A stretch of DNA of 64,000 nt from Trypanosoma brucei (taxonomy: Eukaryota), in NCBI GenBank assembly GCA_000002445.1, contig AE017150.2, positions 1,088,001 through 1,152,000 on the forward strand. The letters run 5' to 3'. The translations under genes were made by a program, and so were the position numbers. The notes beneath the pieces are model-generated. The model saw only the letters and a program-made list of their open reading frames with translations, was not told the DNA's origin and searched no databases. This document shows, piece by piece, positions 19,446-62,374 of the stretch; position 1 is the stretch's first letter, and every line of letters begins with the position of its first letter.

Positions 19446-19480
19446 ACTTATTATATCACTATTTCAAGTAATTCAAAAAG

Positions 19481-20869
19481 ATGGCAATGCTTGGTTTCGA
19501 GTCGACAGCTGAATTTTTCGTCTATCTCACCTTTATCTTTTTTGGGATGTCGGTGATGAATGTGACGAATGCCATTTACTCCAATTATGATTATTTCTCG
19601 GAATATTACAAGTTTGCGCAGCGTAATGCAGATGCGATATCCTCCAATCCATCATTCTGGAAGCACATGTTCACGTATTATAATGTTGTTGTGTTTACGA
19701 TGCAAGTGCTTTTGGAGGCTTTTATGCTCACACCATTGGGCCGACGCATTCCTATTAGTTGGCGTCTCATCTTTGGACTCACAATTCCTATGGTGGAGAT
19801 TATTGTGATTTTAGTGATCCCTGAAGTTGGAGGAAGCGAAGATGGTGCAATCGCAACTATGATGATAGTTGCTTTTGTTGGTGGTATTTCCAAAACACTT
19901 TGTGACTCCAGCAATGCTGCACTTGCGGGACCGTTTCCGACTAAATTCTATGGTGCCATCGTGTGGGGTCTTGCTGTCTCTGGCCTCATGACTTCATTTA
20001 TGTCTATTGTTATCAAAGCATCGATGGACAGCAGTTTTGAAAGCAAGAGAGTTCAGTCCCAAATATACTTTGGATTAGTCATGCTTCTTCAGGTGGTTGC
20101 ATGCGTGCTTCTTGTCCTTCTGAGGAAAAACCCATATGCCATTAAATATGCTGCAGAATTTAGGTATGCTGCGAGGAAGGATGGAGCAACAGGTGAAGAA
20201 GATGACACCGATTTTAAAGGAAGGGGCCCAGCAGATGAGAATAGATATCCCGATGAAAAGGATGACAAGAATGTGCTGAATGCTGATATTGATCCAGATA
20301 AGATGAAGGATACGGATCAGGTTGAAGGCACTACCAACGCTCAGCAGATGCTTGATGCGAGTGTTATGGTTGTGGTGAAACGCATTTGGCCCATGTTACT
20401 TTCATGCTTCTTTGTGTTCTTTGCGACACTTCTTGTATTCCCTGGTGTATTCTTTGCCGTTAAAGGCTCGATGGATCTTAATAACTTTTGGTACTTTCCC
20501 GTTGCCATTGCCATGTTCAACTTGGGTGATTTCTTGTCTCGTCTGGTGCTGCAGTTCAAGCAATTGCATGTGTCTCCGCGTATGGTTTTGATTGGTTCAT
20601 TTGCACGTGCACTTTTGATAATTCCTCTTTCTCTTTGTGTGTCCGGTGCAATTCCTGGTGTGGGGGTTCCTTTTACCGTTTCTCTCCTTTGGGGTCTCAC
20701 AAATGGTTACTTTGGTGGCCTTTCAATGATTTATGGACCACGTACGGGATCCCTCACCACAGCGGGTCAACGCTCTCTTGCTGCCATTTGCATTAATGTT
20801 GCCCTTCTTATGGGTCTTTTTGCTGGTGCTATGTTTGCCTTGGCTGTTAAGGAGGGACTTCCTAAATAA
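19481..20869 (+). CDS. Equilibrative nucleoside transporter (ENT family), TbNT2-family purine nucleoside transporter, copy 1; 462 aa
   Basis: Multi-pass membrane protein (MAMLGFESTAEFFVYLTFIFFGMSVMNVTNAIYS...) with a large charged central loop (KDG..EDD..PDEK..NADIDPDKMKD) and about 11 hydrophobic segments. It matches my recollection of the TbNT2-7 ENT proteins. Which TbNT number each copy carries cannot be decided from the sequence alone. Confidence 0.92.
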   Translation: MAMLGFESTAEFFVYLTFIFFGMSVMNVTNAIYSNYDYFSEYYKFAQRNADAISSNPSFWKHMFTYYNVVVFTMQVLLEAFMLTPLGRRIPISWRLIFGLTIPMVEIIVILVIPEVGGSEDGAIATMMIVAFVGGISKTLCDSSNAALAGPFPTKFYGAIVWGLAVSGLMTSFMSIVIKASMDSSFESKRVQSQIYFGLVMLLQVVACVLLVLLRKNPYAIKYAAEFRYAARKDGATGEEDDTDFKGRGPADENRYPDEKDDKNVLNADIDPDKMKDTDQVEGTTNAQQMLDASVMVVVKRIWPMLLSCFFVFFATLLVFPGVFFAVKGSMDLNNFWYFPVAIAMFNLGDFLSRLVLQFKQLHVSPRMVLIGSFARALLIIPLSLCVSGAIPGVGVPFTVSLLWGLTNGYFGGLSMIYGPRTGSLTTAGQRSLAAICINVALLMGLFAGAMFALAVKEGLPK

Positions 20870-20956
20870 ATTTCTCAAAACTTGTAAATACTTTAAGTAA
20901 TGACATATCATTAGTTTTTAATTTATTAATGAAAAAGAAGATAAATGATACTCGAT

Positions 20957-20978
20957 GCTGGTATCAGCTAGGAGTGGT
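20957..20978 (+). promoter_or_regulatory. Conserved 3'-flank hairpin motif GCUGGUAUCAGCUAGGAGUGGU, 88 nt after the NT copy 1 stop
   Basis: The motif is conserved downstream of all five NT genes while the flanking 3' sequence has diverged. GCUG/CAGC can form a 4-bp stem with a GUAU loop. Confidence 0.35.
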
Positions 20979-23589
20979 GTGAATGATGCAATAAAAAGAA
21001 GGGTAAGGATAGTAAAGAGATGAGCGAGAAATTGAAATATGAGGAATAAGAATAAATTCTAGTTAGAAAAGAATTATATGATATTTGAGAGTAATGAAGC
21101 ATATGCGTGCACACGTTATGTTGTTTTAAATGTGATAAATGGTATAAAAGAAGAAAGTACGTCTTTCCCTTTTCGTTTCTCTAAACTTGTGACTGAGTAT
21201 AAATAAACATATCTGCAATCATTTTAAAAGAGAGAGAAGTGGACGGAGGACCGCAGGTGCGCGTTCATATAATTGTCTTTTTCTTTTTTCCCGTTTTCAT
21301 TATGTTGTGATTGACTCCCTACAAATATCATAATTTCCTCCAATGTTTTGTGTAGCTTTCGTAATTTTTAACAGGAGAAATGATGGTGCAGATCCATTCT
21401 TTGGTGTATACTCAATTTTTGTCTTCTGTTGGATCAATTTCTTTTTGTTGAAACAAAAAAGCAAAAAGGAGGAAATAAAATATACGACTGTAGAAACATA
21501 AACGAACTATCAAAAAAAAAACACATATACATATTTATAATATGTGTTCTTTCTGCACAAAAAAAAAAAGAAAAAAATTGTATTAGTTACAATAATAAAA
21601 AATAGTGAAGCCAGCAGGAGGTGATAATTACAATTTGAACTCATCCCCTCTTGCCTATTTCACTATTCCCTTTGTTTCTTGAGAAAATAACTAAAACAGT
21701 AAAACAAGAGAGAGGATAGTAATAAATTGAATGAAATCAACAATACATTATTTTAAGAGGAAATTTGATTTTACTTTTTCTTTACTTTTCACTGTTTCTG
21801 TTTTTTGATTACTTTTACTTCCTTTCATTTCTTACTTTTTATTCCCATGACTGTGCTATGGTGTTACGGATATGTGTGTGTAAGTGAGGAATGTTGTGTG
21901 GATTTGCTTCTATTATTGTTTACTTGCCTTTGGTTGTATATCACACGCCTGCTTATGTTTTCCCATATGTGTACGCCTGCAGCAAACAGTGTGGGAATTT
22001 ACTCCGTGACTTTTTCTCATAAATGTCGGGAGGCAAATAATTAAATTAATTTTTTGTTTAATGTATCTGTATATGTTTGTCTGTTTATGTGTATGTGTTT
22101 GTGTGTACGTATTTGACATGTTCAGCAATATGTTTAGATTATCCAATAATAACTTCTCTTCCTTTCTATCTCTTATACAGTTATGTTGTTTACTTGTCAC
22201 TGTTTTACTTTCAGGAAAGTGTATAAATTAAGCTGAAGCAACGTTATGTTTATTTGTGTATTAGGCGCATGAATTCATTTTCTAGCAGTTAATGTACGTA
22301 TGCATACACGCATGTGTTTAACTTTATAATGTCTTATACTAAAAATGTATTCAAATATTGCCATGTGAATACCGTGTGAGGCTTATTGTATTTTTGTGTC
22401 GTGAAATAGTCAAGTAGTTGCTGTGTAACTTTTGTGTTTTTTCTTAAATAGATGACGTGTGTTTCCTTAGTTTAAAATATTTAATAAATGATTTGACAGC
22501 TGCTTGCATGTGAGAGTTTCATTCCTCTTCTTTGCTTAAAAATGTGCAGAGACTGGAATCCTTCATATAAATGATGTGAAATGCATAACTTATAAATTGC
22601 ATTTCCACTTTCACATATTGTAATATTATTGAGTATCAAAAGGGAAATGATGAATTACGTAATAGGAAGTTATTCACAACATGTTAATAGAGCAATTTAA
22701 CTTCGCAGCTATCACAGAACAGGCTTTTTATTGTAATGCTTATTTGTGGAATAGCTCATGCTTTATGAATTCTTGAGGATGGAGCGTTGTAATATTTTTA
22801 AAAGTAAACATAAGTAAACAAATAAATAAACAGTTTATCATTTTTGTATTTGCCTTCATAATCACTATAAGCTAAGCTATTAGTCTATTAACAATAATTA
22901 ATATGGCTACTAGTAAGGCAAAAGACGAGAAATAAGAAATTAATTTATAGGAATGATTTGATAGTTTGACGAATGTGTAATTATCATGTCTCTGATACTA
23001 GTGACGGATTATGATAGAGAGAATATGATTTGTGAGGTAGTTTTGATTCTCTGAAGTGATACAGCGGCGCATGGGAACTCGTCGTAAGAAAAAAAGAAAT
23101 AAATAATGTGCGGTATGTAATTTTTAAACCTCACATTGATGAGGTTGTGAGGCATAAAATAACTCTTGCCATTTTCCCAACGTGGCCAACAGTCGAAGAA
23201 CTGGTGCAACACTGCAGTAATGATACAGTGATGTTAAATTGAAAGCGAAAAATAAATATGAATGGCGTAAAAAGGGGGAAGGAAGTAGTGATGGTGGCGT
23301 AATCGATTTGGATTGTTTTTCGTGACAAATTCTCTACATTCAATGATTCTAGAGGAAACAAGTACGTACCATAGCAGTGGTTACTGTGTTTCCATAAGGA
23401 GTAAGTTATATTTACTGGAAAATGTGGTATTAAGAAATGTTATATGTGAGTAGTAATATACCTCAACACAGAGATGTACGCTCATGTAATCACTACACAA
23501 AAACCTTCCGAATGTTTTGAACGCACTGAGCGGATTGATGCGTCTCTCCAACCTTGAGTTGAAATGCACAACCCTTGAGTGTTGAGTTG

Positions 23590-26100
23590 GGATACATATT
23601 TTTAGATGTCACTAGAGCTTGATGTGTGGAATGAAACTCTAGAGCTCATGCATATGGCTAATGCTTATCATCGTCGTAACTTCCATGTTGGTACGATGAT
23701 GTGCAGTTTGCTGTTAGTGATAGCCTTCAGTGGATTGTATGGTAGGTGGTGTTTCTCTGTTTGTTTTCTGTCACAGATGGCAATGGAAGCGTCGACTATC
23801 TTTTGTATTACTCAGAAGGGAAAATTCTCTTTTTAAGTAATGGTAATGTTGAATCGTTGATAAAATCAACGGAATTATCCATAAGCTAGTTTTAATTGGA
23901 GGAAAGGAGAATAGGAGAACTGCCCACTTTGATGTGTTGCCAACAAACGAAAACAAGTGGTATGTATATTTTAGAACCCAGTATTTTTCTTTCTTATCCG
24001 ATGTACTTCCCTAATGTTTGGATCTGAGAAATACCTAATGATGATTAATACGGTTAGAGTTAGGGCATTCTTTTGTGATGCTGAATATCGCATCTATTGA
24101 TAACAGCAATCGATACGCCATACTCAAACATAAATGAATTCTCACACATTAACGCTGCTTCTGGTATCGCCAACCGTTATGTTCAATAGCTCGTTACGTG
24201 GGAGCATGAGTGGATGTAATGATGGATGCCGCTTCATCAAAGGCAGCTGCGTGATACTTATCTCAGAATATGTCAATGGTGTCGTATTATAGCCAAGTTT
24301 AAGTCTAATAATTAATCATAGTGATGTGTGTGGAAAAAGTGAGATTGTACCATTGCAGTGAGTGAACCGCTTTGCTTGGGACGTATTGCATTGTGCTGTG
24401 TGATTAAGCGCCGAGTTTGTTCACATCATACGTATGATATTTAGTTACTGTCAACCCACCGGATTGGTGTGGGAGGAGTGTAAGGCATCGTGCGAGCATG
24501 GGACATATGTTTCATCGCAGTGTCACGGAGGTTTTAAGGTATGGTGGAATATGGGAGGTGGATTAGCTATAGATCTCTTTGTGCCTCCATCCCTTCGTGC
24601 TATGCTTTTTCTTTTCCCCTGAAACTGATACAGTCTGGGGAGGCAGTGTGCTGAAGCTTCGCTAAGGTTTTGAAAGCAGGACTCACGACCCATCCCCCAC
24701 TGTGTAATGTATGATGACCAGATTTGTTCTGAGGGAGCATCAAACCAATCGTGTACGATGGAAGTGTAGAATAGGAAGTAAAGGAAAGTGTATTATTATG
24801 TGCAGATGCGTATGAGGCACTGCTCACAACACCTAAAGAAAGCAAAGTCACTCCTGACGGTTTTGATCATTTTATCAGTGTATCACAATCTAATCATTTC
24901 TGCTGTAGAAGGTTCGTTGCATAGTTGTGTGTATTCTGCTTTCAGAGTTGACATTCTGTCACTTACCACTGTGGAGAGTGATCACGATAATATCGTCGGC
25001 TTTCCGGTATGGAAGGAAGTATCACTTTACTCTTCTGCTCGTATAAGCGTGCTTTGTTCATCCGTGGAGCGGTGTTGTTATTGAAAAGGGGATGCTGAGT
25101 AGAGTGGTGACTCAACACTTTTTCTTGTACTGAAGACATACTAAGAGGTTCTGTCAGCAGGACAGACTTGCGGTGGCCAGGTGGTTTCGCGACCTCAGGG
25201 ACAACTTCCATATTGCACAAGGGGAACTTCTTCGTTTTGAGGTGACAGGGCGCATGCTAGTGTTGGGATATCTGTACATTGGAATGGCAAGGTCTTCCAG
25301 GGAAGGAAGGGAGGTGTATAAACCAGTGAAGGGCTGCACAGGTACTGTGTCAGGTATGAAAGTGATAGAGGTCTCTAAGGAAGTGTCAGATGTGATTATA
25401 CTCGGCAAGAGGTTGCTGCTCAAGGTTTTGATTATATACTTTCCGAAACAATCAAATGTTGCGAAAATTACGTTGAAAGAAAGTTTAGGGGGAGCAATGG
25501 GATAAGGGAAACCCTCACTGGATTGTTTTGTCGGGTATACAGCATGATAAGTGGAAGGTTTGGTGGAGAAGCACGCAGGTACACCACACCCAATTGGTGG
25601 GAGAGTAGTAATGGCCGGGAGCATTTACCGTGAGTGACAACTCCAACAATGGATGCTAAGTAGTTAATGTTGAAATGTTTTAAAACGTTAGAGAAAGGAA
25701 TGACTAAATGGTTGTAGGTACGTAAATTGTGGGAAGCACTGAGGGAAAATGATGTAATGATGCGACGGACCAAGGGACTCGAATACCCAATATATTACAA
25801 GAAACGCTACTATTGAGTTGGGTGCAGAAACAAGTGAGAGACAAGCTGTTTGGGTAGTTGAAGTATCGACCACTGGGAAGGGTGAAGCGTGGGCAGGAAG
25901 GATCATCAAATCTTATCCTCCTTTCAGTTAATATGACTGAAGAAGCGAGAAAAGAAAAAGAATGGTTGTGAAAAGAGAAATTAGCGAAAAAGAATTAGTA
26001 GAAGCAATTGTGGCGTCAAAAAAGACGTTAAGGGTAGCGTTAGTACAAATAGAAAAGCAGCCAACTCTAAAAAATTGGTTTCCGACGTAAAGGAAGCGGG
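23590..26100. other. Conserved ~2.5 kb block of relatively GC-rich spacer, open on both strands (overlapping 85-156 codon ORFs); function unknown; copy 1
   Basis: Recurs at about 34008-36520, 44104-46610 and 54160-57130. I recognise no protein motif in any frame. It could be a decayed gene, a retroelement relic or an ncRNA locus. Confidence 0.3.
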
Positions 26101-26389
26101 GACAGGTGAATAAAACTATTTAATTTGTACCAGTTTACATGTATGAAAATGACCTCATATGTGTGTGATTTGCTCCTGTTAACTCGGTGAACATCGGAAC
26201 TGACACGTTGCTCTGTGCTATTGTAGCAATGCACTCCAGTGTGATATCACTGGAACTATGAAACCTTATATTTCTTATGGCGTTGTATCAGTGCTTCCAC
26301 TATGGTATCATTATGTTAACGTGAGCAGTATATTGTCACGTGGTGGACAACATGTCAACTAGTTTGTTTAAACTGTTGCTCTCTTGACA

Positions 26390-26475
26390 GCTTGTAATTC
26401 GTATCATTCTGTTGTGTTCTTTTCCTTTCTTGTTTATTCTTCCAAAATACTGTTATCGGAAGGACCCCCTTTATC
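26390..26475 (+). promoter_or_regulatory. Polypyrimidine tract upstream of 2OG-oxygenase copy A; conserved upstream of all copies
   Basis: ttctgttgtgttcttttcctttcttgtttattcttccaaaatactgttatcggaaggaccccctttatccttatttttgcatctgc sits upstream of the ATG at 26587. Confidence 0.35.
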
Positions 26476-26586
26476 CTTATTTTTGCATCTGCACTGGCTG
26501 TTTAAGCGGACCCTTTCCAATTGTTAGGCACAAAACGGTACATATATATATATTTCAAGAAAGCAACAGTGTGTAATTTAGAAACC

Positions 26587-27546
26587 ATGACACGCGCCTC
26601 GCTTCCTGTTATTGATGTTTCGCCCCTATTTGGTGGCGAATCCGCAGAAAAGGAAAGGGTCTCCAAGCAGATTGATAATGCATGCAGAACATGGGGCTTC
26701 TTCTACATTGTGGGGCATCCGATCCAGCAGGAGCAGATTGAGAGGGTGCTAGATGTAGCGAAGAATTATTTTTCACTCCCCATGGAAGAGAAGCTCAAAT
26801 TGGACATTCGTAAAAGTAAGCTGTATCGTGGTTATATTGCTTTTGGGGCCGAGGACCCCGATGATGCTAAGGTCTACGGCTACGAGGGGTTCAATATGGG
26901 GCACCATCTTCCGAAGCACCACCCAGAGGTTATGGCAGGAGTGCCGCTCCGAGGACCGAACATCCACCCCACTCAGGTAAAGGGCTGGGCGGAGGAAATG
27001 GAAAATCAATATGACGATATGTGGGCCCTTTCACTTGTTATCCTGCGCGCTATGGCACTGGGACTCGGCCTGCGGGAAGATTTCTTCGACTCCAAGTTTA
27101 TGGATCCGATGTGTGAATTGAATATAAAGCATTACCCTTCCCCAACCACTACAGGCAAAAAATCTCATTTGCTTATTGAGCACGCTGACTTTTGCGCTAT
27201 TACATTACTCTATCAAGACGGTGTGGGTGGCTTGCAAATTCGAGGACTTTCCGGAGAGCTGATGGATGTGCCACCTGTTGAAGGAAGTTTTGTTGTCAAC
27301 ATTGGAGACATGATGGAGATGTGGACCAATGGCCAATACCGTTCTACCATGCACCGTGTTGTTCCGAGAAGTGGCACACGGTACTCCATGCCTTTTTTCT
27401 GTGTCCCAAACCCGAATGTCATTATTAAGTGCCTCGACAACTGTCATTCGGAGGAGAATCCACCAAGGTACCCTCCAGTGCGGGCTGTTGACTGGATTTT
27501 GAAGCGATTCGCGGAAGTGTTTTCGCTTGCAAAACCTAAAATGTAG
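26587..27546 (+). CDS. 2-oxoglutarate/Fe(II)-dependent dioxygenase, isopenicillin-N-synthase-like ('iron/ascorbate oxidoreductase' family), copy A (type I, with a divergent C-terminal tail); 319 aa
   Basis: DIOX_N-like N-terminus (LPVIDVSPLFGG...WGFFYIVGHPI). Iron-binding facial triad H-x-D...H (LLIEHADF ... STMHRVV) and the 2OG-binding R-x-S (RYSMPFF) are all present. The supplied ORF begins 66 nt earlier; the ATG at 26587 (MTRASLPV) is conserved in all four copies. Confidence 0.9.
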   Translation: MTRASLPVIDVSPLFGGESAEKERVSKQIDNACRTWGFFYIVGHPIQQEQIERVLDVAKNYFSLPMEEKLKLDIRKSKLYRGYIAFGAEDPDDAKVYGYEGFNMGHHLPKHHPEVMAGVPLRGPNIHPTQVKGWAEEMENQYDDMWALSLVILRAMALGLGLREDFFDSKFMDPMCELNIKHYPSPTTTGKKSHLLIEHADFCAITLLYQDGVGGLQIRGLSGELMDVPPVEGSFVVNIGDMMEMWTNGQYRSTMHRVVPRSGTRYSMPFFCVPNPNVIIKCLDNCHSEENPPRYPPVRAVDWILKRFAEVFSLAKPKM

Positions 27547-31335: not shown

Positions 31336-31409
31336 GTTTTGAAAATTTATGATACCTTCAAATAATGTGAAAAATTTTTTGTAACTAGTGAAATAAAAAA
31401 AAGCTCCGT

Positions 31410-31430
31410 GCTGGTATCAGCCAGGAGTGG
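31410..31430 (+). promoter_or_regulatory. Conserved 3'-flank hairpin motif (gctggtatcagccaggagtgg), 75 nt after the NT copy 2 stop
   Basis: Same motif as at 20957. Confidence 0.35.
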
Positions 31431-41812: not shown

Positions 41813-41833
41813 GCTGGTATTAGCTACGAATGG
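41813..41833 (+). promoter_or_regulatory. Conserved 3'-flank motif, variant (gctggtattagctacgaatgg), 72 nt after the NT copy 3 stop
   Basis: Variant of the motif at 20957. The stem remains possible with a G-U pair. Confidence 0.3.
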
Positions 41834-51843: not shown

Positions 51844-51903
51844 ATTCTCAATAATTGTAAAAATTACAATTAATACAATTTTTTTTTTTAAAAAAGGCTC
51901 CAT

Positions 51904-51924
51904 GCTGGTATCAGCTAGGAGTGG
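51904..51924 (+). promoter_or_regulatory. Conserved 3'-flank hairpin motif (gctggtatcagctaggagtgg), 61 nt after the NT copy 4 stop
   Basis: Same motif as at 20957. Confidence 0.35.
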
Positions 51925-54900
51925 TTTTAACGATGAAAATAATAAAAAAAATAAAATAGGAAAAGATAAGACAAAAAGGGGTTAATTCTAGGAAAGTGAA
52001 TAATATGACACATGGCAGCAAGCAAGCATATACGTGCATATGTTATGTAGTTTTGAGGTAAAAGTGACGCAAAGAAAAGTGTTAGTCGGTTACAAACGCA
52101 TCGCGCAAAGTACGATACGGCGGAGTTCTGCAAGCTTGTACCATGACAGTATTTCACTATTTTGTTAACTAACATGGATTTCACCTCTAAGATATGGTTT
52201 TAAGGGTAAGGGTTGTAAATTGTGAAATTGTATTGACGATCTCACTCATTAGTGCAAACCTTTGATACACTTTACTGTTTACTTTTGATGCAACACAAAA
52301 TTTGTGTGAAAGAAAGAGCTATACTTCAGCTTGTAGCGTTTTCAGTGCGCTTATTTTCATCACATGTGTGCAAACGAGTAAAAAAATGATGTGAACCCGA
52401 AAAGTCTTATTACTTTTCCTTTTATTCCCATGACCGTGCTATGGTGTTACGGATATGTGTGTAAGTGAGGAGTGTTGTGTGGATTTGCTTCTATTATTGT
52501 TTACTTGCCTTTGGTTGTATACCACACACCTGCTTATGTTTTCCCATATGTGTACGCCTGTAGATAACAGTGTGGGAGTTTACTCCGTGACGTTTTCTCA
52601 CAAATGTCTAGAGGCAAATGATTAAAGTAATTTTTTTGTTTAATGTATATCTGTATATGTTTGTCTGTTTATGTGTATGTGTGTTTGTGTGTACGTATTT
52701 GACATGTTCAGCAATATGTTTAGATTATCCAATTATATCTTTTCTTTTCTATTTTCTTATATTGTTTACTTGTCACTGTTTTACTTTCAGGAAGGTATAT
52801 AAATTAAGCTGAAGCAACGTTATGTTCATTTGTGTATTAGACACATGAGTTTATTTCCAAGCAGATGATATATGCGTGAACGCGTGTGTTTAACTTTATA
52901 ATGTCTTATACTAAAGATGTATCCAAATATTGCCATGCTAATACCTTGTGAGGCTTATTGTACTTTTGTGTTGTGAAATAGTCAAGTAGTTGCTGTGTAA
53001 CTTTTGTGTTATTTTTTAGATAATGTGTGTTTTCTTAGTCTAATATCTTTAATAAATGATTTGACAGCTGCTTGCATGTGAGGGTTTCATTCCTCTTCTT
53101 TGCTTAAAAATGTGCAGAGACTGGAATCCTTTATATAAATGAAGTGAAATGCATAACTTATAAATTGCATTTCCACTTTCACATATTGTAATATTATTGA
53201 GTATCAAAAGGGAAATGATGAATCATGTAATAGGAAGTCATTCACAACATGGTAATAGAGCAATTCATCTTCGAAGCTATAACGGAACAAGCTTTTTATT
53301 GTAATGCTTATTTGTGGAATAGCTCATGCTTTATGAATGCTTGAGGATGGAGCGTTGTAATATTTTTAAAAGTAATATAAGTAAACTAGCAAACAAATTA
53401 TCGTTTTTGTTTCTTCCTTCATAATCACTATAAGCTAAGCTATTAGTCTATTAGCAATAATTAATATGACTACTAGTAGGGCAAAAGACGAGAAATAAGA
53501 AATTAATTTATAGGAATGATTTGATAGTTTGAAGGGTGTGTAATTATCATGTCTCTTATACTAATGACGGATTATGCTAGAGAGAATGTGATTTGTGAGG
53601 TATTTGTGATTCTCTGAAGTGATACAGCGGTGCATGGGAACTCGTCGTAAGGATAAAAAAAATAAATAATGTGCGGTATGTAATTTTTAAACCTCACATT
53701 GATGAGGTTGTGAGGCATAAAATAACTCTTGCCATTTTCCCAACGTGGCCAACAGTCCAAGAACTAGTGTAGTACTGCAGTAATGATACAGTGATGTTAA
53801 ATTGAAAGCGAAAAATAAATATGAATGGCGTAAAAAGGGGGAAGGAAGTAGTGATGGTGGCGTAATCGATTGTTACTGTGTTTCATGACAAATTCTCTAC
53901 ATTCAATGATTCTAGAGGAAACAAGTACGTACCATAGCAGTGGTTACTGTGTTTCCATAAGGAGTAAGTTATATTTACTGGAAAATGTGGTATCAAGAAA
54001 TGTTATATGTGAGTAGCAATATACCTCAACACAGAGATGTACGCTCATGTAATCACTACACACAAAAAAGTTCTGAAAGTTTTGAACGCGTTGAGCGGAT
54101 TGATACGTCTCTCCAACCTTGAGTTGAAATGCGCAACCCTTGAGTGTTGAGTTGGGATACATATTTTTAGATGTCACTAGAGCTTGATGTGTGGAATGAA
54201 ACTCTAGAGCTCATGCATATGGCTAATGCTTACCGTGGGCAAAACTTGTCGATGTTGGTACGATGATATGCGATTTGTTGGCAGTGATAGCTTTCAGCGG
54301 ATTGTATGGTAGGTGGTGTTTTTTTTTCTGCCACAGGCGGCAATGGCAGTGTTGACTAATTTTTGAATTACTCAGAAGGGAAATTTCTCTGTTTAAGTGA
54401 TGATCATGTTGAATCGTTGATAAAATCAACGGAATTATCCATAATTAGTTTTAATTGGAGGAAAATGAAATAGGAGAACTGCCCACGTTGATGTGTTGCG
54501 GACAAAGAAAAGTGAGTGGTATGCATATTTTAGAACCCAGTATTTTTCTTTCTCATCTGATGTGCTTCCCTAATGTTTGGATCTGAGGAATACCTAATGA
54601 TGATTAATGCGGTTAGAGTTAGGGCATTCTTTTGTGATGCTGAATATTGTATCTATTGATAACAACAATCGATACGCCATACTCAAACATAAATGAATTC
54701 TCACACATAAACGCTGCTTCTGGTATCGCCAACCGTTATGTTCAATAGCTCGTTACGTGGAGCATGAGTGGATGTGACAGTGAATGTTCCTTCATCAAAG
54801 ACAGCTGCGTGATGCTTAACTCAGAATATGTCAATGGTATCGTATTATAGCCAAGTTTAAGTTTAATAATTAATAATAGTGATGTGTGTGGGAAAAGTGA

Positions 54901-57622
54901 GATTGTACCATTGCAGTGGGTGAACCGTTTCGTTTGGGACGTATTGCATTCTGCTGTGTGATTAAGCGCCGAGTTTTTCTGCAAATATACGTATGATATT
55001 TAGTTGCTGTCGACCCGCCGAATCGGTGTGTGGTTAGTGTAAAGCATTATGCGAACATAGGTTAGTAATGCACAGTGTTTAGAAGGCGAATGTGCCATTC
55101 AAGTAACCTTGATTTATACGTAACGTTTCTTACCTTTTTGTGGTGTTTCACTGTGATCATTCCGAGCGATGTAGTTTATGCTGTTAATGTCACTCAAAGC
55201 AATCTGATATTTTTTATGATTGTCACTGCAGCATCTCTTTCTACAAGTTTCTTTACTTTTTTTAAAAAAAGGCATCATTATAAAGCTTGAAAAAGATGTC
55301 ATAGCTCTTTAACCCTTTACACCCTCTCAAAATATGCCATGAAAAATGTAAAACTTGCCAGTTGTTTTCACGGTTGCGGCTCTGTAAGAAAGTGAATATT
55401 TCACACTTTGGAGAGCTAATTTTGCTACGAAGTGGTTAAGGCCACCTATTCGCAGTGGCAGCCCTTGAGGTGAAAACCACATATACTAACGTATCGACAG
55501 CAGTAATGAGGACATGTGTCAGCATGGGACGTATGTTTCACTACAGTGTCACAGAGGTTTTAAAGCACAGTGGGCACGGGAGGTGAATTAGTTGTAGATC
55601 TCTTTGTGCCTTAACCTTTCGTGCTATTCTTTTTTTTCTCTCTGGAACTGATACAGTCTGGGGAGGCAGTGTGCTCAAGCTTTGCTAAGTTTTTGGAAGC
55701 AGGACTCACGACCCATCCCCCACTGTGTAATGTATGATGACCAGATTTGTTCTGAGGGAGCGTCAAACCAATCGTGTACGATGGGCGTGTAGAACAGGAA
55801 GTAAAGGAAGGTGTGTTATTATATGCAAATGCAGATGAAATACTGCTCACAACACCTAAAGAAAGCAAAGTCACTCCTGACGGTTTTGATCATTTTATCA
55901 GTGTATCACAATCTAATCACCTTTGCTGCTGTAGAAGGCTCATTGCATAGTTGTGTGTATTTTGCTTTCAGAGCTTGAGACAACCAGTCACTTACCGACC
56001 ACTGTGGAGAGTGATCACGATGATGTCGTCGGCTTTCCTGTATGGAAGGAAGTATCATTTTGCTCTTCTGCTCGCGTAATTGTGTTCCTTTGTGTATCCG
56101 TGGAGTAGCGTTGTTATTGAAAAGAGGGATGATGAGTAGAATGGCGACTCAACACTTTTTCTTGTACTGAAGAAATACCAAGAGTTTTTTTCAGCAGGAC
56201 AGACCTGCGGTGGCCATGTGGTTTAGATACCTCAGGGACAACTTCCATATTGCACAAGGAGAACTTCTGCGTCTTGAGGTGGCATGGCGCATGCTAGTGT
56301 TGGGATATCTGTACATTGGAATAGCAAGGTCTTCCAGGGAAGGAAGAGGGATACATAAGCCAGTGAAGGGCTGCACAGGTGCTGTGTCAGGTGTGAAGGT
56401 GATAGATGGCTCTAAGGAAGTGTCAGATGTGATTATACTCGGCAAGAGGTTGCTGCTCAAGGTTTTGATTATATACTTCCCGAGACGATCAAATGTCGCG
56501 TAACTTACGTTGGAAGAAAGTTTAGGGGGAGCAATGGGATGAGGGAAGTCCCCACTGGATTGTTTGGTCGGATATACAACATGATAAGTGGAAGGTTTGT
56601 TGAAGAAGAACGCAGGTACACCACATCCAATAGGTGAGAAGGCAGTAATGGCCGGGTGCATTTGCTGTGAGTGAAAACTTTAACAATGGATGCTAAGTAG
56701 TTAATGTTGAAATGTTTTAAAACGTTAGAGAAAGGAATGACTAAATGGTTGTAGGTACGTAAATCGTGGGACGCACTAAGGGAAAATGATGTAGTGGTGC
56801 GATGGAGCAAGGGACTCGAATACCCAATATATTACAAGAAACGCTACTGTTGAGTTGGGTGCAGAAACAAGTGAGAGACAAGCTGTTTGGGTAGCTGAAG
56901 TATCGACCACTGGGAAAGGTGAAGCGTTGGCAGGAAGGATCATCAAATCTCATCCTCATTTCATTTAGTATGACTGAGGAAGCGAGGGAAGGAAAGGAAT
57001 GGTTGTGAAGGGAGCAAGTAGTGAAAGCAAAATAGTAGAAGCAATTGTGGCGTCAAATAAGATGTGAAGGGTAGCGGTAGTACAAATAGAAAAGCAAAAC
57101 CAAGTTAAAAAAATTGGTTGCCGACGTCAAGGAAGCGGGGACAGGTGAATAAAATTATGTAATTCGTACCAGTTTAAATGTATTAAAATGAACTCTGATG
57201 TGTGTGATTTGCTACTGTTAACTCGGTGAACATCGGAACTGATACGTTGCTCTGTGCTATTGTAGCAGTGCACTCCAGTGTGGTATCACTGGAACTATAA
57301 AACCTTATATTTCTTATGGCGTTGTATCAGTGCTTCCACTATGGCATCATTGTGTTAACGTGAGCAGTATATTGTCACGTAGTGGACAACATGTCAACTA
57401 GTTTGTTTAAACTGTTGCTCTCTTGACAGTTTGTAGTTCGTATCACTCTGTTGTTTGCTTTTCTTGTCTTGTTTATTCCCCTGAGATATTACTGGTAAGT
57501 CCTCCTTTATCCTAATTTTTGTATTTACGCCGGCTGTTGAAGCGGAACCCTTCCAATTATTAGGCACAAAACGGTACATATATATATATTACAAGAAAGC
57601 AACAGTGTGTAATTTAGAAACC

Positions 57623-58582
57623 ATGACACGCGCCTCGCTTCCTGTTATTGATGTTTCGCCCCTATTTGGTGGCGAATCCGCAGAAAAGGAAAGGGTCTCC
57701 AAGCAGATTGATAATGCATGCAGGACATGGGGCTTCTTCTACATTGTGGGACATCCGATTCAGCAGGAGCAGATTGACAAAGTACTTAAGTTAGCTGATA
57801 CTTTTTTCTCTCTTCCTATGGAGGAGAAGCTCAAATTGGACGTTCGCAAGGGTAGACTTTATCGTGGTTACACTGCCCCTGGAGTAGAGGAAGCTGATGT
57901 AGGGAAGGTTTACACGTACGAGACCTTTACGACGGGATACCATCTTCCTAAGCACCATCCAGACGTCATGGCAGGCAAACCGCTCCGAGGACCGAATATC
58001 CACCCCACTCAAGTGAGGGGATGGATGGAGGGTATGGAAGGTCATTACCGCGATATGTGGGCACTTGCGCTTGTCCTCCTGCGCGCTATGGCGCAAGCTA
58101 TCGGTTTGCAGGAAGATTTCTTCGACTCCAAGTTTATGGATCCCCTTTGTGAATTGAATATAAAGCACTACGTTCCCTTATCTCAAACGAAAGAAGAAAC
58201 TACTTTGCTCATTGAGCACAGCGATTTCGGTGTTATGACGTTACTCTATCAAGACGCTTCAGGTGGCTTGCAAGTACGTGATAGTTCCGGAGAGCTGATG
58301 GATGTGCCACCTGTTGAAGGAAGTTTTGTTGTCAACCTTGGAGACATGATGGAGATGTGGACCAATGGCCAATACCGTTCCACAAAGCATCGTGTGGTAG
58401 CCACAGACAAGGAACGGTACTCCATGCCTTTCTTTTGCAATCCCAATCCGAATGTCATCGTCAAGTGCCTCGACAACTGTCACTCGGAAGAGAATCCACC
58501 AAGGTACCCTCCAGTGCGGGCTGTTGATTGGGTTTTGAAGCGGTTCGCGGAGGCATATGGGAAAGATTACTCAAAAATGTAG
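57623..58582 (+). CDS. 2OG-Fe(II) dioxygenase, IPNS-like family, copy D (type II); 319 aa
   Basis: Identical to copy C except residue 285 (V/I) and residue 305 (V versus I). Confidence 0.9.
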   Translation: MTRASLPVIDVSPLFGGESAEKERVSKQIDNACRTWGFFYIVGHPIQQEQIDKVLKLADTFFSLPMEEKLKLDVRKGRLYRGYTAPGVEEADVGKVYTYETFTTGYHLPKHHPDVMAGKPLRGPNIHPTQVRGWMEGMEGHYRDMWALALVLLRAMAQAIGLQEDFFDSKFMDPLCELNIKHYVPLSQTKEETTLLIEHSDFGVMTLLYQDASGGLQVRDSSGELMDVPPVEGSFVVNLGDMMEMWTNGQYRSTKHRVVATDKERYSMPFFCNPNPNVIVKCLDNCHSEENPPRYPPVRAVDWVLKRFAEAYGKDYSKM

Positions 58583-60973
58583 GAGTGGTTCCTAGTTTGC
58601 ATTTCTTTTAGCATTTGCTTTATCAAGAATGGTATCAGGCCCTGCAATTAGTAGTTGTTTTTCAGACGTGGCTGACTTACATATGCGTAGTATCTGTCGT
58701 AATGCAAAAAGTTCTGTGATTTAAAATGTGGGTGAAGACAGTACGGTAACGTATCTAGTCAGAATGAATATATTTCACTCACTCTTTATTTTCAATGTAG
58801 GGAATTGTTAAAGGGGTAATAATATTTCTTTCACCTTTCCTCTTCCTTTTTTTTAATTGCCATCTTTGTAAGGGGTGCTGTAAGTCCATCTTTTCTCATA
58901 CTTTGATATCTTCATCTATTTCCTTATTACATTGAATAATGCATTAACATCTTCATTGCGATGCCAACTGAAGTATTCTGACAAGCAATAGGTGTATGCT
59001 ATTGTATGTTAGTTTATGCTGCAACAGAGTTCTCCTTGGAAATGCTTGTCTTTTTTTTTCACTTTGAGGGGGTTCTACAATTGTCTTTCCCCATTCTATT
59101 CTAAGGGTTAATTACGCATTAGAAATGCTACCAGTCACTTCAGAGGTATTCCTTCTTACACAAGTATTATTTTGATGCGATCTCATGCAAGGAGAATGGA
59201 GGTAAATGGAGAATGAAACAACTCACATTCTCCACCCACCCAATGGAGAGCATACGTTTTACCATGGAAGTCGCGCTTGAAGTATCTCCCCAAGTAGAGC
59301 AAACTAATGAGGAATTAGCACCTAAGGGCTGCGTTGTTAAATATTTTGAAAGAGTGGGGGTTCGTACGTGAAGGATAAGGGATTTTGAGGGTGCTTACTC
59401 TTATTGTGTTTTTAATTTTTTTTTTGAAAAGGGGGGTGGTGGCCAATTTTATTATGTCACCCGACGAATGGAATTGCTTTGTACCACGCTGTTTGTGTTT
59501 GTTACATATATTGGTAAGGAATAATGTTTTTTATGTGAATTTCAATGCGTTTGATGTTTTTTGTCACCGCACTTATGTTGAGTCTGTGCAATTTCTTTTC
59601 CCTCCATGCTGAACATACCATTCTCTATTATTTTCTTATCTTTCATTGTTTCAGCTTTTCAGGGGAAACACATGCATACCCACGAGATGGAATACACTAA
59701 ACGACACGTAACACTGTGGGAGAATGTTATAAATGCATGCAGTCCAATACTTGAGAAATGTGTATTTTCTACACCTTAACATCAATTTTTTTTTTTGTAA
59801 AGGACAAACTCACTGAGTGTTTAGTGACTGCGCTTCTTCAAACTTTTCTCCCTCAAGGCGTATTATGCAGTTGCAGAGAGTCATCTGTTTTCTGCTCCTT
59901 CTCCGCTTGCTAATGATTTGTGTTTATGCGTGTTGCTTCCTTTTTTATATTGTAAGTAATAGAAGACAAAAAAGGGGATATTACATATTACATATTTTAT
60001 TTTGTATGTTAGCATGGTTGCATAATTTATTCTGCTGTAGAGGCGTGTGTTATGGATTGTAGTATTTGGAAAAGTTGTTCGACTAAAAGTTATAAAAGCT
60101 AACCCTGTGTGTGATGGATTTTTAATTTATATAAACTTGTTTAACTTTATATTAGAATATAAATTTATTTATTGTCATTTAAATAGTTCACCCATATGAG
60201 AAAACTAAATGAACACATATACGCACGTATATGTATATTTATATTTGCATATTTGTTGTTTATGTATATTATATTTGAGTAATGTTGGTAAGGTAAGAAA
60301 ACGGCTGTGTAATAAATCATTTTTATTTGGTATGCTTTGAGTGCGCGCGCGTGGGTTCTTTATTTCTATTATTAGAAAAGGAAACTGCAATAATTGTTTC
60401 ATTATTAAAAGTTCTTCATGACTCTTGTTTTTAAGTTTAGCATTTTGCTATTACTCAAATCATGTGAATTAAGGGAGGACTCATATCAGTATCATATGAT
60501 GATATTTGAAACAATTTAGAGACGCCTGATATTACTCAATACTCTAACTCTTTTTTTTCCTTTCATATCCATTGCATTTATATTGTGATATGATAAGTTG
60601 ATTTGTGTTAGCATTCAAATGCAGCATTGTTATTATTAATATTAACTTCCTTAAAGGAAATTAATTCGAAAGGAATGTTATTGTAAAAGGATTCAAATTG
60701 CAAGTAGTTATTCAGATAATGTTAATAATTTATACACAATTTTATATTTATTGTAGTTGTAGTAGTGTGCGTATTTAAACAAAGGTACCACTAATTTTGT
60801 AATTACTCAATAGTTATAATGACACAATTCTATTTCTTGATAATTTGAGTCCCTGAATTTGTTTTTCCCTTCATATTTTTCACTTTGCTTTTCTTTTCTT
60901 TCATTTCATATATGTTTTTCTTTTTGTTATATAGACAAGCTTATTATATCACTATTTCAAGTAATTCAAAAAG

Positions 60974-62374
60974 ATGGCAATGCTTGGTTTCGAGTCGACA
61001 GCTGAATTTTTTGTCTATCTCACCTTCATCTTTTTTGGGATGTCGGTGATGAATGTGACGAATGCTATTTACTCTATTCCTGACTATTTTTCAGTGTATT
61101 ATCAATTTGTTAAAAATGATGAAAAAGCGAAACCTGTCAATGCATCGTTCTGGGAGCACATGTTCACGTATTATAATGTTGTTGTGTTTACGATGCAAGT
61201 GGTTTTGGAGGCTTTTATGCTAACACCATTGGGCCGACGCATTCCTATTAGTTGGCGTCTCATCTTTGGACTCACAATTCCTATGGGTGAGATCATTGCA
61301 ATTTTAGTGATCCCTGAAGTTGGAGGAAGTGAAGCTGGTGCGATGGCAACTGTTATGATAGTTGCTTTTGTTGGTGGTATTTCCAAAACACTTTGTGACT
61401 CCAGCAATGCTGCACTTGCGGGACCGTTTCCGACTAAATTCTATGGTGCCATCGTGTGGGGTCTTGCAGTCTCTGGCCTAATCACTTCATTTATGTCTGT
61501 TGTCATCAAAGCAGCGATGGAATACAGCTTCAAAAGCAGACGAGTTCAGTCCCAAATATACTTTGGATTAGTCATGCTTCTTCAGGTGGTTGCATGCGTG
61601 CTTCTTGTCCTTCTGAGGAAAAACCCATATGCCATTAAATATGCTGCAGAATTTAGGTATGCTGCGAGGAAGGATGGAAAGACAGATGATGGCGAAGATG
61701 AAAACGATGCAAAGGGAACAGGGCCAGCAGACGAAGATGGGTATCCTGATGAAAAAGAGAATAAGAATGTATTGAATGCTGATATTGATCCAGATAAGAT
61801 GAAGGATACGGATCAGGTTGAAGGCACTACCAACGCTCAGCAAATGCTTGATGCGAGTGTTATGGTTGTGGTGAAACGTATTTGGCCCATGTTACTTTCA
61901 TGCTTCTTTGTGTTCTTTGCGACACTTCTCATCTTCCCTGGTGTATTCTTTGCTGTTAAAGATAAAACAACGGTAAAAAACTTTTGGTATTATACAATTA
62001 TTGTTGCCATGTTCAACTTGGGTGATTTCTTGTCTCGTCTGGTGCTGCAGTTCAAGCGGTTGCATGTGTCTCCGCGCATGGTTATGATTGGTTCATTTGC
62101 ACGTGCGTTGCTGATAATTCCTCTTGCCCTTTGCGTTCCTGGTACCATTCCTGGTGTATGGCTTCCCTACACCGTTTCTCTCCTTTGGGGTCTCACAAAT
62201 GGTTACTTTGGTGGCCTTTCAATGATTTATGGACCACGTACGGGATCCCTCACCACAGCGGGTCAACGCTCTCTTGCTGCTATTTGCATTAATGTGGCTC
62301 TTTTACTCGGTCTCTTTGCTGGTGCTATGTTTGCATTGGCTGTTAAGGAGGGACTTCCGAAGGAAAAAAAGTAG
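60974..62374 (+). CDS. ENT-family nucleoside transporter, TbNT2-family, copy 5; 466 aa
   Basis: Its TM1-TM2 loop is of the copy-4 type (SIPDYFSVYYQFVKNDEKAKPVNASFWEHM). Its C-terminus is of the copy-2 type, with an extra KEKK tail. Confidence 0.92.
   Translation: MAMLGFESTAEFFVYLTFIFFGMSVMNVTNAIYSIPDYFSVYYQFVKNDEKAKPVNASFWEHMFTYYNVVVFTMQVVLEAFMLTPLGRRIPISWRLIFGLTIPMGEIIAILVIPEVGGSEAGAMATVMIVAFVGGISKTLCDSSNAALAGPFPTKFYGAIVWGLAVSGLITSFMSVVIKAAMEYSFKSRRVQSQIYFGLVMLLQVVACVLLVLLRKNPYAIKYAAEFRYAARKDGKTDDGEDENDAKGTGPADEDGYPDEKENKNVLNADIDPDKMKDTDQVEGTTNAQQMLDASVMVVVKRIWPMLLSCFFVFFATLLIFPGVFFAVKDKTTVKNFWYYTIIVAMFNLGDFLSRLVLQFKRLHVSPRMVMIGSFARALLIIPLALCVPGTIPGVWLPYTVSLLWGLTNGYFGGLSMIYGPRTGSLTTAGQRSLAAICINVALLLGLFAGAMFALAVKEGLPKEKK

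What the first reader, a model, noticed from the sequence alone, without database searches (positions are those of the whole stretch)
19481..62374. Segmental mosaicism among the five transporter paralogues, implying recurrent gene conversion
Comparing the five translations segment by segment gives conflicting groupings. The TM1-TM2 loop (residues 35-62) groups the copies as (1,2,3) versus (4,5). The ~80-residue central cytoplasmic loop (KDGKTDDGEDENDAKGTGPADEDGYPDEKENKNVLNADIDPDKMKDTDQVEGTTNAQQ...) is identical in copies 2 and 5 and differs at a single residue (A to V) in copy 4, but differs in copies 1 and 3. The C-terminal 40 residues (...AICINVALLLGLFAGAMFALAVKEGLP) group copies 2 and 5 together. 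Such incongruent segment phylogenies are the signature of patchwise gene conversion within a tandem array. No single tree fits all segments.
Basis: seen in the sequence. Interest (0 to 1): 0.55.

Follow-up and report, generated by a model that had tools for sequence, protein, structure and literature searches.

The report
Mosaic nucleoside-transporter array of Trypanosoma brucei
The five transporter genes are copies of the known TbNT2-7 nucleoside-transporter array on Trypanosoma brucei chromosome 2, and they really are patchworks of one another made by gene conversion, but published recombination tests on this same array already gave a significant signal.

Summary
The window is T. brucei brucei TREU927 chromosome 2. 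It carries five of the six P1-type ENT transporters (NT2-NT7), which alternate with iron/ascorbate oxidoreductase genes in a tandem unit of about 10.4 kb.

- The 101 biallelic informative sites show all 10 possible 2|3 splits, clustered along the gene. The best single tree explains only 44 of them.
- My PHI statistic gives z=-8.5, p<=1e-4, and stays significant at third codon positions.
- A GENECONV-style permutation gives globally significant identical tracts in 7 of 10 copy pairs (91-294 nt exact, bounded on both sides).
- Segment NJ trees carry mutually incompatible splits with 90-100% bootstrap.
- The first copies in T. b. gambiense and T. b. equiperdum differ from copy 1 mainly by clustered patches of other-copy type, so events are recent and recurrent.
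- Unequal crossing-over also contributes: gambiense has 3 copies, and oxidoreductase copy 2 is a one-breakpoint chimera.

Jackson et al. 2010 (PMC2854126, Table 2, rows 12bi and 12bii) report PHI p<0.001 and at least 14 GARD breakpoints for this array. One side observation: the CDS and 3' UTR form an island of divergence (dS 0.24-0.52) between flanks that differ by 0-7%.

The parts
18160..64000 (+). Tandem array of ~10.1-10.5 kb units. Each unit holds one ENT transporter, a ~5.6 kb ORF-free spacer and one 2OG-Fe(II)/iron-ascorbate oxidoreductase. The window holds 4 full units and a truncated fifth.
   Evidence: Start-to-start spacings are 10460, 10412, 10098 and 10523. In the whole-unit alignment, homology of unit 1 to the other units begins at about 18,160-18,300.
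19481..20869 (+). Transporter copy 1, 462 aa. Exact match to XP_951746.1 'adenosine transporter 2' of T. b. brucei TREU927. By position it is the first gene of the array, so presumably Tb927.2.6150 / TbNT2-927.
   Evidence: Pfam Nucleoside_tran 3.6e-31. Exact look-up.
29941..31335 (+). Transporter copy 2, 464 aa. Reads the same as TREU927 protein P0003.
40353..41741 (+). Transporter copy 3, 462 aa. The most divergent copy. Reads the same as TREU927 protein P0006.
50452..51843 (+). Transporter copy 4, 463 aa. Reads the same as P0004 = XP_951752.1.
60974..62374 (+). Transporter copy 5, 466 aa. Exact match to XP_951754.1.
51020..51313 (+). Tract of 294 nt exactly identical between copy 4 and copy 5 (61542-61835), covering the central TM6-TM7 loop. 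Copy 2 (30571-30848) matches copy 5 (61601-61878) with one mismatch in 278 nt.
   Evidence: Both flanks revert to 20-33 differences per 140-220 nt.
19862..19974 (+). Tract of 113 nt exactly identical between copy 1 and copy 5 (61355-61467).
   Evidence: (global p=0.0006)
20675..20799 (+). Tract of 125 nt exactly identical between copy 1 and copy 2 (31141-31265). Copy 5 differs by 1 nt here; copies 3 and 4 differ by 11-23.
   Evidence: (global p=0.002)
30245..30335 (+). Tract of 91 nt exactly identical between copy 2 and copy 3 (40657-40747), although copy 3 is otherwise the outlier.
   Evidence: (global p=0.007)
20045..20185 (+). Tract of 141 nt exactly identical between copy 1 and copy 4 (51016-51156).
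   Evidence: (global p=0.047)
20870..21700 (+). 3'-UTR region that falls into three barely alignable types (units 1/2; unit 3; units 4/5). Together with the CDS it forms the island of divergence inside the unit.
26587..27546 (+). Oxidoreductase copy 1, 319 aa counted from the ATG at MTRASLP. It has a unique 3' end.
   Evidence: Pfam DIOX_N + 2OG-FeII_Oxy
37003..37962 (+). Oxidoreductase copy 2, a one-breakpoint chimera. Nt 1-715 match copy 1 (3 differences, all at or before nt 715). Nt 716-960 match copy 4 (0 differences) and copy 3 (4 differences). The breakpoint lies between nt 691 and 759.
47099..48058 (+). Oxidoreductase copy 3. It differs from copy 4 (57623-58582) by 5 nt.
57623..58582 (+). 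Oxidoreductase copy 4.
37665..39450 (+). Stretch of ~1.8 kb that matches 58285-60070, two units downstream, in two exact blocks of 988 and 797 nt. It is either a long conversion tract or a crossover product, and it continues from the oxidoreductase chimera.

Best explanation

Their mosaic structure comes from repeated short, non-reciprocal homologous-recombination events (interlocus gene conversion) between copies 10-40 kb apart in the same array, or between misaligned sister or homologous arrays. Tracts are roughly 90-300 nt. Occasional unequal crossovers are superimposed; these change copy number and create one-breakpoint chimeras.

Shown here: the patches, their statistical significance, their presence at synonymous sites, and their strain specificity.

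Inferred:
- Lesions in one copy are repaired from a paralogous template by RAD51-type recombination.
- Exchange starts easily in the nearly identical flanks and in conserved transmembrane-coding blocks.
- Inside the CDS and 3' UTR, exchange is curtailed by sequence divergence (heteroduplex rejection by mismatch repair), by selection for functionally distinct isoforms, or by both. This leaves an old, divergent core (dS 0.24-0.52) pierced by young patches and embedded in homogenised flanks.
For: Identity of the locus:
- Pfam Nucleoside_tran.
- Copies 1 and 5 are exact sequence matches to annotated TREU927 proteins on a 1,193,948-bp contig. Copies 2-4 read the same as TREU927 proteins P0003, P0006 and P0004.
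- Jensen 2009 describes NT2-NT7 alternating with oxidoreductases next to the subtelomeric VSG cluster of chromosome 2.

Recombination:
- All 10 possible splits occur among 101 informative sites and are spatially clustered. The best tree explains 44 of 101.
- PHI z=-8.5, p<=1e-4. Third positions alone give z=-6.0, p<=1e-4.
- The longest identical runs are globally significant in 7 of 10 pairs.
- Exact tracts of 91-294 nt are bounded on both sides by 10-20% divergence.
- Segment NJ trees carry incompatible splits at 90-100% bootstrap.

Recency and recurrence:
- The T. b. gambiense first copy differs from copy 1 at 51 columns. Of these, 27 lie in a 190-nt patch where it matches the copy 2/4/5 type with 2-3 differences.
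- The T. b. equiperdum first copy has 33 of 50 differences in alignment columns 190-500.

Unequal crossing-over component:
- 3 copies in gambiense against 6 in brucei.
- Oxidoreductase copy 2 is a chimera, followed by 1.8 kb of two-unit-offset identity.

Published tests on the same array: PHI p<0.001, at least 14 GARD breakpoints.
Against: - With one haplotype per strain, non-reciprocity cannot be shown. Double crossovers would leave the same two-sided patches.
- dS of 0.25-0.5 means some site incompatibilities are multiple hits. The four-gamete minimum of 37 events is therefore inflated; a conservative count is about 6-7 distinct tracts.
- The PHI and fragment tests are my own re-implementations on five sequences, not the reference programs.
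- Some identical stretches could partly reflect constraint. For example, codons 261-320 have low dS in all copies.
- The mechanism (RAD51 repair, mismatch-repair limitation, selection) is inferred from general knowledge, not tested here.
Confidence: 0.85

Rival explanations
1. Unequal (reciprocal) crossing-over alone explains the mosaics, without short-tract gene conversion. This would occur between misaligned arrays on sister chromatids or homologues, including meiotic recombination in the tsetse stage.
For: Copy number differs between subspecies: 6 against 3. Oxidoreductase copy 2 is a single-breakpoint chimera whose donor identity continues for about 1.8 kb downstream. Kilobase-scale blocks of 98-100% identity join different sets of units along the spacer.
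Against: Inside the transporter CDS the tracts are 91-294 nt and bounded on both sides. They have different partners within one gene: copy 1 matches copy 5, then copy 4, then copy 2. Each such patch would need two closely spaced crossovers. The gambiense first copy differs from copy 1 by an internal 190-nt patch, with both flanks keeping copy-1 identity.
Confidence: 0.08
2. There was no recombination. Convergent or parallel selection on loops, together with rate heterogeneity and homoplasy among old duplicates, mimics a mosaic.
For: dS is high (0.24-0.52), so multiple hits occur. The loops are the most variable parts and could be selected. At protein level the C-terminal grouping rests on one residue.
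Against: PHI is significant at third codon positions alone (z=-6.0). Tracts are identical at every site, synonymous ones included, for 91-294 nt. Window dN/dS is 0.07-0.34 with no sign of positive selection. The noncoding spacer and the neighbouring oxidoreductase gene show the same kind of mosaic.
Confidence: 0.02
3. The mosaic is an assembly artefact. The TREU927 reference array would be a chimeric assembly of a repeated region, or a mixture of two haplotypes.
For: The flanks of the units are 96-100% identical over hundreds to thousands of bases. That is the situation in which repeat assemblies go wrong.
Against: The breakpoints of interest lie inside the CDS, where copies differ by 10-20%, so reads are easy to place. 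The particular mosaic of copy 1 is reproduced outside the strain-specific patches in two independent assemblies: T. b. gambiense DAL972 (2.0% different) and T. b. equiperdum (1.5% different). The gambiense first-copy protein shares its sequence record with an independently deposited GenBank entry, AAF04490.1.
Confidence: 0.03

Closest known systems
T. brucei NT2-NT7 (P1-type adenosine/inosine transporter) array, chromosome 2, Tb927.2.6150-6320 (Sanchez et al. 2002, J Biol Chem 277:21499, cited; Jensen et al. 2009, PMC2771046)
   Same: It is this locus. Copies 1 and 5 are exact sequence matches to TREU927 proteins and copies 2-4 read the same as P0003, P0006 and P0004. The alternation with iron-ascorbate oxidoreductase genes and the + strand polycistronic context also match.
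   Different: Nothing differs. The window holds five of the six copies. The assignment of copies 2-5 to NT3-NT6 follows gene order only and was not checked against the original paper, which is not held.
Recombination survey of T. brucei tandem gene arrays (Jackson 2007, PMC1855330; Jackson et al. 2010, PMC2854126, Table 2 rows 12bi 'Adenosine transporter Tb927.2.6150' and 12bii 'Iron-ascorbate oxidoreductase Tb927.2.6180')
   Same: Same array and same conclusion. The paper's general text describes sequence mosaics, concerted evolution and subspecies-specific recombinant copies. The row for this array gives PHI p<0.001, 10 LRT breakpoints and at least 14 GARD breakpoints over 9 sequences and 1407 sites.
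   Different: The published result is one row in a survey table. It gives no tract coordinates, no unit-wide profile of divergence and no account of which copies exchange. The 2007 main text does not mention this array.
Islands of divergence between duplicates that undergo gene conversion under selection for different functions (Teshima and Innan model; recalled from memory, not checked here)
   Same: Flanks are homogenised (0-7% divergence, mostly 0-5%), while the CDS (dS 0.24-0.52) and the 3' UTR stay divergent.
   Different: Selection was not demonstrated here. dN/dS is about 0.25 throughout. Divergence-limited recombination alone could maintain the island.
Segmental gene conversion that builds mosaic VSG genes in T. 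brucei
   Same: Same organism and a neighbouring subtelomeric region. Short patches are copied between diverged paralogues.
   Different: VSG mosaics are made somatically and selected during infection. Nothing here suggests somatic or programmed switching. These are germ-line, evolutionary events in housekeeping transporters.

Membership tests
Equilibrative nucleoside transporter (ENT/SLC29) family; T. brucei NT2-NT7 array | Match to the Pfam Nucleoside_tran (PF01733) model above the gathering score | tested here: met
   109.2 bits against a cut-off of 29.8, residues 128-455
Equilibrative nucleoside transporter (ENT/SLC29) family; T. brucei NT2-NT7 array | Sequence identity to the annotated TREU927 chromosome 2 proteins | tested here: met
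   Copies 1 and 5 found by exact look-up (XP_951746.1, XP_951754.1). Copies 2, 3 and 4 read the same as P0003, P0006 and P0004.
Equilibrative nucleoside transporter (ENT/SLC29) family; T. brucei NT2-NT7 array | Sequence relation to a solved ENT structure | tested here: met
   Human ENT1 6ob6_A, E=2e-5 over residues 281-454. The match is weak and covers the C-terminal half only.
Equilibrative nucleoside transporter (ENT/SLC29) family; T. brucei NT2-NT7 array | Purine nucleoside transport activity of each copy | not testable with these tools
   Kinetic values for NT2 and NT5-7 are quoted in PMC9960827 Table 10. Nothing was measured here.
Interlocus (intra-array) gene conversion | Different segments of the alignment support incompatible trees | tested here: met
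   All 10 splits are present. The best tree explains 44 of 101 sites. Incompatible splits have 90-100% bootstrap.
Interlocus (intra-array) gene conversion | Incompatible sites are spatially clustered (PHI/NSS), including at synonymous positions | tested here: met
   PHI z=-8.5 for all sites and z=-6.0 for third positions, p<=1e-4. NSS p<=5e-4.
Interlocus (intra-array) gene conversion | Unusually long identical fragments bounded on both sides by normal divergence (GENECONV criterion) | tested here: met
   7 of 10 pairs have global p<=0.05. Exact tracts of 91-294 nt have divergent flanks.
Interlocus (intra-array) gene conversion | Lineage-specific patches in orthologous copies of related strains | tested here: met
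   The gambiense and equiperdum first copies each differ from copy 1 by a clustered patch of other-copy type.
Interlocus (intra-array) gene conversion | Non-reciprocal transfer, with the donor unchanged | not testable with these tools
   This needs pedigrees, tetrads or induced-break experiments.
Unequal crossing-over in a tandem array | Copy-number variation between strains | tested here: met
   Locus L001 of T. b. gambiense shows three transporter genes. The published count is 6 in brucei against 3 in gambiense.
Unequal crossing-over in a tandem array | One-breakpoint chimeric genes whose downstream sequence follows the second parent | tested here: met
   Oxidoreductase copy 2, followed by 988 + 797 nt of exact identity at two-unit offset. 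This feature is not met for the patches inside the transporter CDS.

The most novel reading that the evidence does not exclude
The array is not just drifting under conversion. Selection would actively keep the CDS and 3' UTR of each copy distinct against strong homogenisation of the surrounding unit. Meanwhile, short conversion patches would shuffle the extracellular TM1-TM2 loop, the cytoplasmic TM6-TM7 loop and the C-terminal helices between copies. Different T. brucei strains would then carry different combinations of transporter modules, with different substrate or drug (nucleoside analogue) specificities and different stage regulation. The evidence does not exclude this: the divergence island has sharp edges near the start codon and about 1 kb past the stop, and the mosaics are strain-specific. 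It does not demonstrate it either, since dN/dS is about 0.25 everywhere.
Probability: 0.2. Interest if true: 0.4.

Novelty: already known. Interest (0 to 1): 0.15.

Why it matters
These transporters take up purines, which the parasite cannot make, and they also take up toxic nucleoside analogues that are candidate drugs. Strain-specific mosaic copies mean that a transporter characterised in one strain need not exist in the same form in another. For example, copy 1 of strain 927 and the first copy of gambiense differ by a whole central-loop patch. This matters for drug-uptake studies and for read mapping or expression analysis over the array. As evolutionary biology, it is a clear but already documented example of concerted evolution and divergence coexisting in a trypanosome tandem array.

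Tried and rejected
- I tried to fetch DNA for the sixth TREU927 copy (P0002) and for the region beyond the window using copy 5. Neither product is on record in the contig index. Copy 6 was therefore inspected only by eye as a protein and was left out of the nucleotide tests.
- Sanchez et al. 2002 is not held in the library. The mapping of copies 2-5 to NT3-NT6 rests on gene order only.
- The main text of Jackson 2007 has no mention of the adenosine-transporter array. The array-specific result is in the 2010 paper.
- I looked for coding potential and tandem repeats in the 5.6-kb spacer. There is no credible ORF and no tandem repeat.
- Convergent selection was considered and rejected, because the signal persists at third positions and in noncoding DNA.
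- Assembly chimerism was considered and rejected, because two independent assemblies reproduce the mosaic of copy 1 outside their own patches.
- The Hudson-Kaplan minimum of 37 events is not used as an estimate, because the infinite-sites assumption fails at this dS.
Full report
**What the region is**

All long ORFs in the window lie on the + strand. From about 18.2 kb to the window end there is a tandem repeat with start-to-start spacings of 10,460, 10,412, 10,098 and 10,523 bp. Each unit carries:
- a 462-466 aa protein that matches Pfam Nucleoside_tran (109 bits);
- after about 5.6 kb with no credible ORF or tandem repeat, a protein with DIOX_N and 2OG-FeII_Oxy domains.

The homology search names the closest proteins 'adenosine transporter 2' of Trypanosoma brucei brucei TREU927, on a 1,193,948-bp contig. 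Copies 2, 3 and 4 read the same as P0003, P0006 and P0004. Copies 1 and 5 are exact matches to XP_951746.1 and XP_951754.1. A sixth copy, P0002 = XP_951756.1, lies beyond the window.

Jensen et al. 2009 (PMC2771046) describe this locus. [quoted passage not shown] So the window is the well-known TbNT2-7 array. Sanchez et al. 2002 is cited but is not held.

**Check of the observation**

A codon-aware alignment gives 82-91% nucleotide and 78-90% protein identity between copies.

| Segment | Closest pairs (nt differences) | Other pairs | Source |
|---|---|---|---|
| Residues 35-62 (TM1-TM2 loop) | 4-5: 10; 1-2, 2-3, 1-3: 14-17 | 29-35 between the two groups | |
| Central loop (201 nt) | 2, 4, 5: 1-2 | 30-46 to copies 1 and 3 | |
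| C-terminal 40 residues | 2-5: 6; 1-2: 9 | 11-20 | |

In the central loop, the proteins of copies 2 and 5 are identical and copy 4 has the single A->V change. The C-terminal 2+5 grouping rests on one residue relative to copy 1 at protein level, but the DNA supports it, with 96% bootstrap for (2,5) over nt 1326-1401.

**Is it more than chance?**

- Among 356 variable sites, 101 are biallelic and informative. They show all ten possible 2|3 splits, and in runs rather than interspersed: (4,5) at nt 104-230, (1,3) at 710-792, (2,5) at 1333-1338. The best single unrooted tree, ((2,3),(4,5),1), accounts for only 44 of 101.
- My implementation of the PHI statistic gives 0.375 against a permutation mean of 0.494 (z=-8.5, p<=1e-4).
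- The signal remains at third codon positions (z=-6.0, p<=1e-4) and at first plus second positions (p=8e-4). NSS is also significant.
- A GENECONV-style test permutes polymorphic sites and takes the longest run of identity per pair. It is globally significant for seven of ten pairs, each with a different location.
- These runs correspond to exact tracts:
  - 294 nt between copies 4 and 5;
  - 278 nt with one mismatch between copies 2 and 5;
  - 141 nt between copies 1 and 4;
  - 125 nt between copies 1 and 2;
  - 113 nt between copies 1 and 5;
  - 91 nt between copies 2 and 3.
- Each tract is flanked on both sides by segments where the same pair differs by about 10-20%.
- Segment NJ trees give incompatible splits with high bootstrap: (4,5) 100% at 103-240; (2,3) 100% at 301-400 and 97% at 501-640; (2,4,5|1,3) 100% at 641-840; (1,2,5|3,4) 90% at 1201-1325; (2,5) 96% at 1326-1401.

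No single tree fits.

**Recurrent and recent events**

I fetched the orthologous arrays of T. b. gambiense DAL972 (L001: three transporter genes) and T. b. equiperdum (L002).

- The gambiense first copy is 96.5% identical to copy 1. Of its 51 differences, 27 lie in a 190-nt patch over the central loop, where it matches the copy 2/4/5 type with 2-3 differences. Outside the patch it differs from copy 1 by 2.0%.
- The equiperdum first copy has 33 of its 50 differences in alignment columns 190-500, where it resembles copies 2 and 3.
- The second gambiense copy is a patchwork of copy 2-, 1- and 3-like segments, plus a stretch unlike any of copies 1-5.

Exchanges have therefore continued since these very close subspecies separated. 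The gambiense first-copy protein carries a second, independent GenBank accession, AAF04490.1. From memory this is the originally cloned TbNT2, which would fit the name 'TbNT2/927' for the 927 variant.

**The whole unit is mosaic**

A sliding-window comparison of the full units shows kilobase-scale blocks that group the units differently.

| Region (unit 1 coordinates) | Units that group together | Contrast |
|---|---|---|
| 23.0-26.4 kb | 1, 2, 3 at 96-100% | unit 4 at about 83-97% |
| 21.0-22.9 kb | 4, 5 at 99-100% | |
| 26.6-27.1 kb | 1=2 and 3=4 | 73-82% between the two groups |
| 27.2-28.2 kb | 2, 3, 4 at 94-100% | |

Oxidoreductase copy 2 is a clean one-breakpoint chimera. Nt 1-715 match copy 1 with 3 differences. 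Nt 716-960 match copy 4 with none. The identity then continues as 988 + 797 exact nucleotides at a two-unit offset, 37665-39450 = 58285-60070. This looks like unequal crossing-over or a very long tract, and it fits the copy-number difference between subspecies (6 against 3).

**An island of divergence**

- The roughly 580 bp upstream of each start codon, together with the first 100 nt of the CDS, differ by 0-4% between units.
- Divergence then jumps to 8-23% through the CDS.
- The first ~700 nt after the stop codon fall into three barely alignable types.
- Divergence returns to about 5% near 21.85 kb.

Pairwise dS between CDS copies is 0.24-0.52, with dN/dS 0.23-0.29 overall and 0.07-0.34 in windows. 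The coding cores are therefore much older than their flanks and are under purifying selection. I found no window suggesting positive selection.

**Mechanism**

Shown:
- short two-sided patches with several partners;
- patches present at synonymous and noncoding sites;
- strain-specific patches;
- a crossover-type chimera and copy-number change.

Inferred from general knowledge of homologous recombination in T. brucei (my own knowledge, not tested here):
- Lesions in one copy are repaired by RAD51-dependent recombination from a paralogous template.
- Exchange starts readily in the near-identical flanks and in conserved transmembrane-coding blocks.
- In the diverged core it is cut short by mismatch-repair rejection of heteroduplex, by selection against loss of isoform-specific sequence, or by both.

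Rivals:
- Crossovers alone would need paired crossovers for each 90-300-nt patch.
- Convergent selection is contradicted by the third-position and noncoding signals.
- Assembly chimerism is contradicted by the two independent assemblies that reproduce the mosaic of copy 1 outside their own patches.

**Comparison with what is known**

Jackson et al. 2010 (PMC2854126) compared variable tandem arrays of T. b. brucei 927 and T. b. gambiense. Two rows of Table 2 cover this locus.

| Row | Gene | Sample ID | Copies (Tbb / Tbg) | PHI observed vs mean | p | Breakpoints |
|---|---|---|---|---|---|---|
| 12bi | Adenosine transporter | Tb927.2.6150 | 6 / 3 | 0.289 vs 0.415 | <0.001 | 10 LRT; at least 14 GARD |
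| 12bii | Iron-ascorbate oxidoreductase | Tb927.2.6180 | 5 / 2 | 0.011 vs 0.038 | <0.001 | 0 LRT; 3 GARD |

[quoted passage not shown] Jackson 2007 (PMC1855330) set out the general picture of concerted evolution coexisting with divergence in these arrays, though its main text does not name this array.

This analysis adds only detail: tract coordinates, the partner pattern, the oxidoreductase chimera and the profile of the divergence island.

**Verdict**

- Observation: confirmed.
- Interpretation: supported.
- Novelty: already known.
- Interest: low (0.15).

The most novel reading not excluded is that selection maintains distinct modules while conversion shuffles them into strain-specific transporter repertoires. 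I give this about 0.2 probability and moderate interest if true.

Noticed in passing
window 37003-37962 (and 37665-39450 = 58285-60070): Oxidoreductase copy 2 is a one-breakpoint chimera of copy 1 (nt 1-715) and copy 4 (nt 716-960). The identity to the unit two positions downstream continues for about 1.8 kb in two exact blocks.
   Followed up: yes
window 18900-21850, and the same stretch in each unit: Sharp island of divergence. The 5' flank and the first ~100 nt of the CDS differ by 0-4%, the rest of the CDS by 8-23% (dS 0.24-0.52). The 3' UTR falls into three barely alignable types (units 1/2, unit 3, units 4/5), then divergence returns to ~5%. The island begins near the start codon rather than at the unit boundary.
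   Followed up: partly
window 55054-55520: Unit 4 has 467 nt in the spacer that are absent from units 1-3 at the homologous position (after 24494, 34912 and 45008). There is no other copy in the window. Whether it is an insertion in unit 4 or a deletion spread among units 1-3 is unknown.
   Followed up: partly
L001 10001-11376 (T. b. gambiense DAL972, second transporter copy): Direct translation of the called gene range gives 6 stop codons in its 3' part, and the look-up reports 'translates_to_query: no'. The annotated 458-aa product therefore needs a frameshift or join, so this mosaic copy may be a pseudogene.
   Followed up: no
window 26521-27546, 36937-37962, 47081-48058, 57605-58582: The mechanical ORFs of the oxidoreductases start at TTG/GTG codons upstream. 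The real start is probably the ATG at MTRASLP, which gives 319 aa and 960 nt including the stop. That matches the 319-aa genes called in gambiense and equiperdum and the 960 sites in the published table.
   Followed up: partly
window 161-17753: Upstream single-copy genes, all on the + strand: a PI-PLC X-domain protein (161-1429), coatomer COPA/B-type (4934-7501), a RanBP zinc-finger protein (8003-9217), two ORFs without Pfam hits (9552-11165, 12463-13926) and an ABC transporter (14394-17753). The region 2001-4000 has very low GC (0.28).
   Followed up: no
P0002 (sixth copy, outside the window): Seen by eye in the protein. Its TM1-TM2 loop looks like a hybrid of the two loop types: NYNFFSEYYKF as in copies 1-3, then VKKQEKAEPENESFW resembling copies 4/5. 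It shares the DPDDMRDTDQ motif with copy 3. The mosaicism therefore seems to extend to the copy not in the window.
   Followed up: no
window 25154-25624 and 56191-56661 (- strand): A 156-aa minus-strand ORF recurs in units 1 and 4 inside the spacer. It is low-complexity and overlaps ORFs in other frames, so it is probably not a gene.
   Followed up: no
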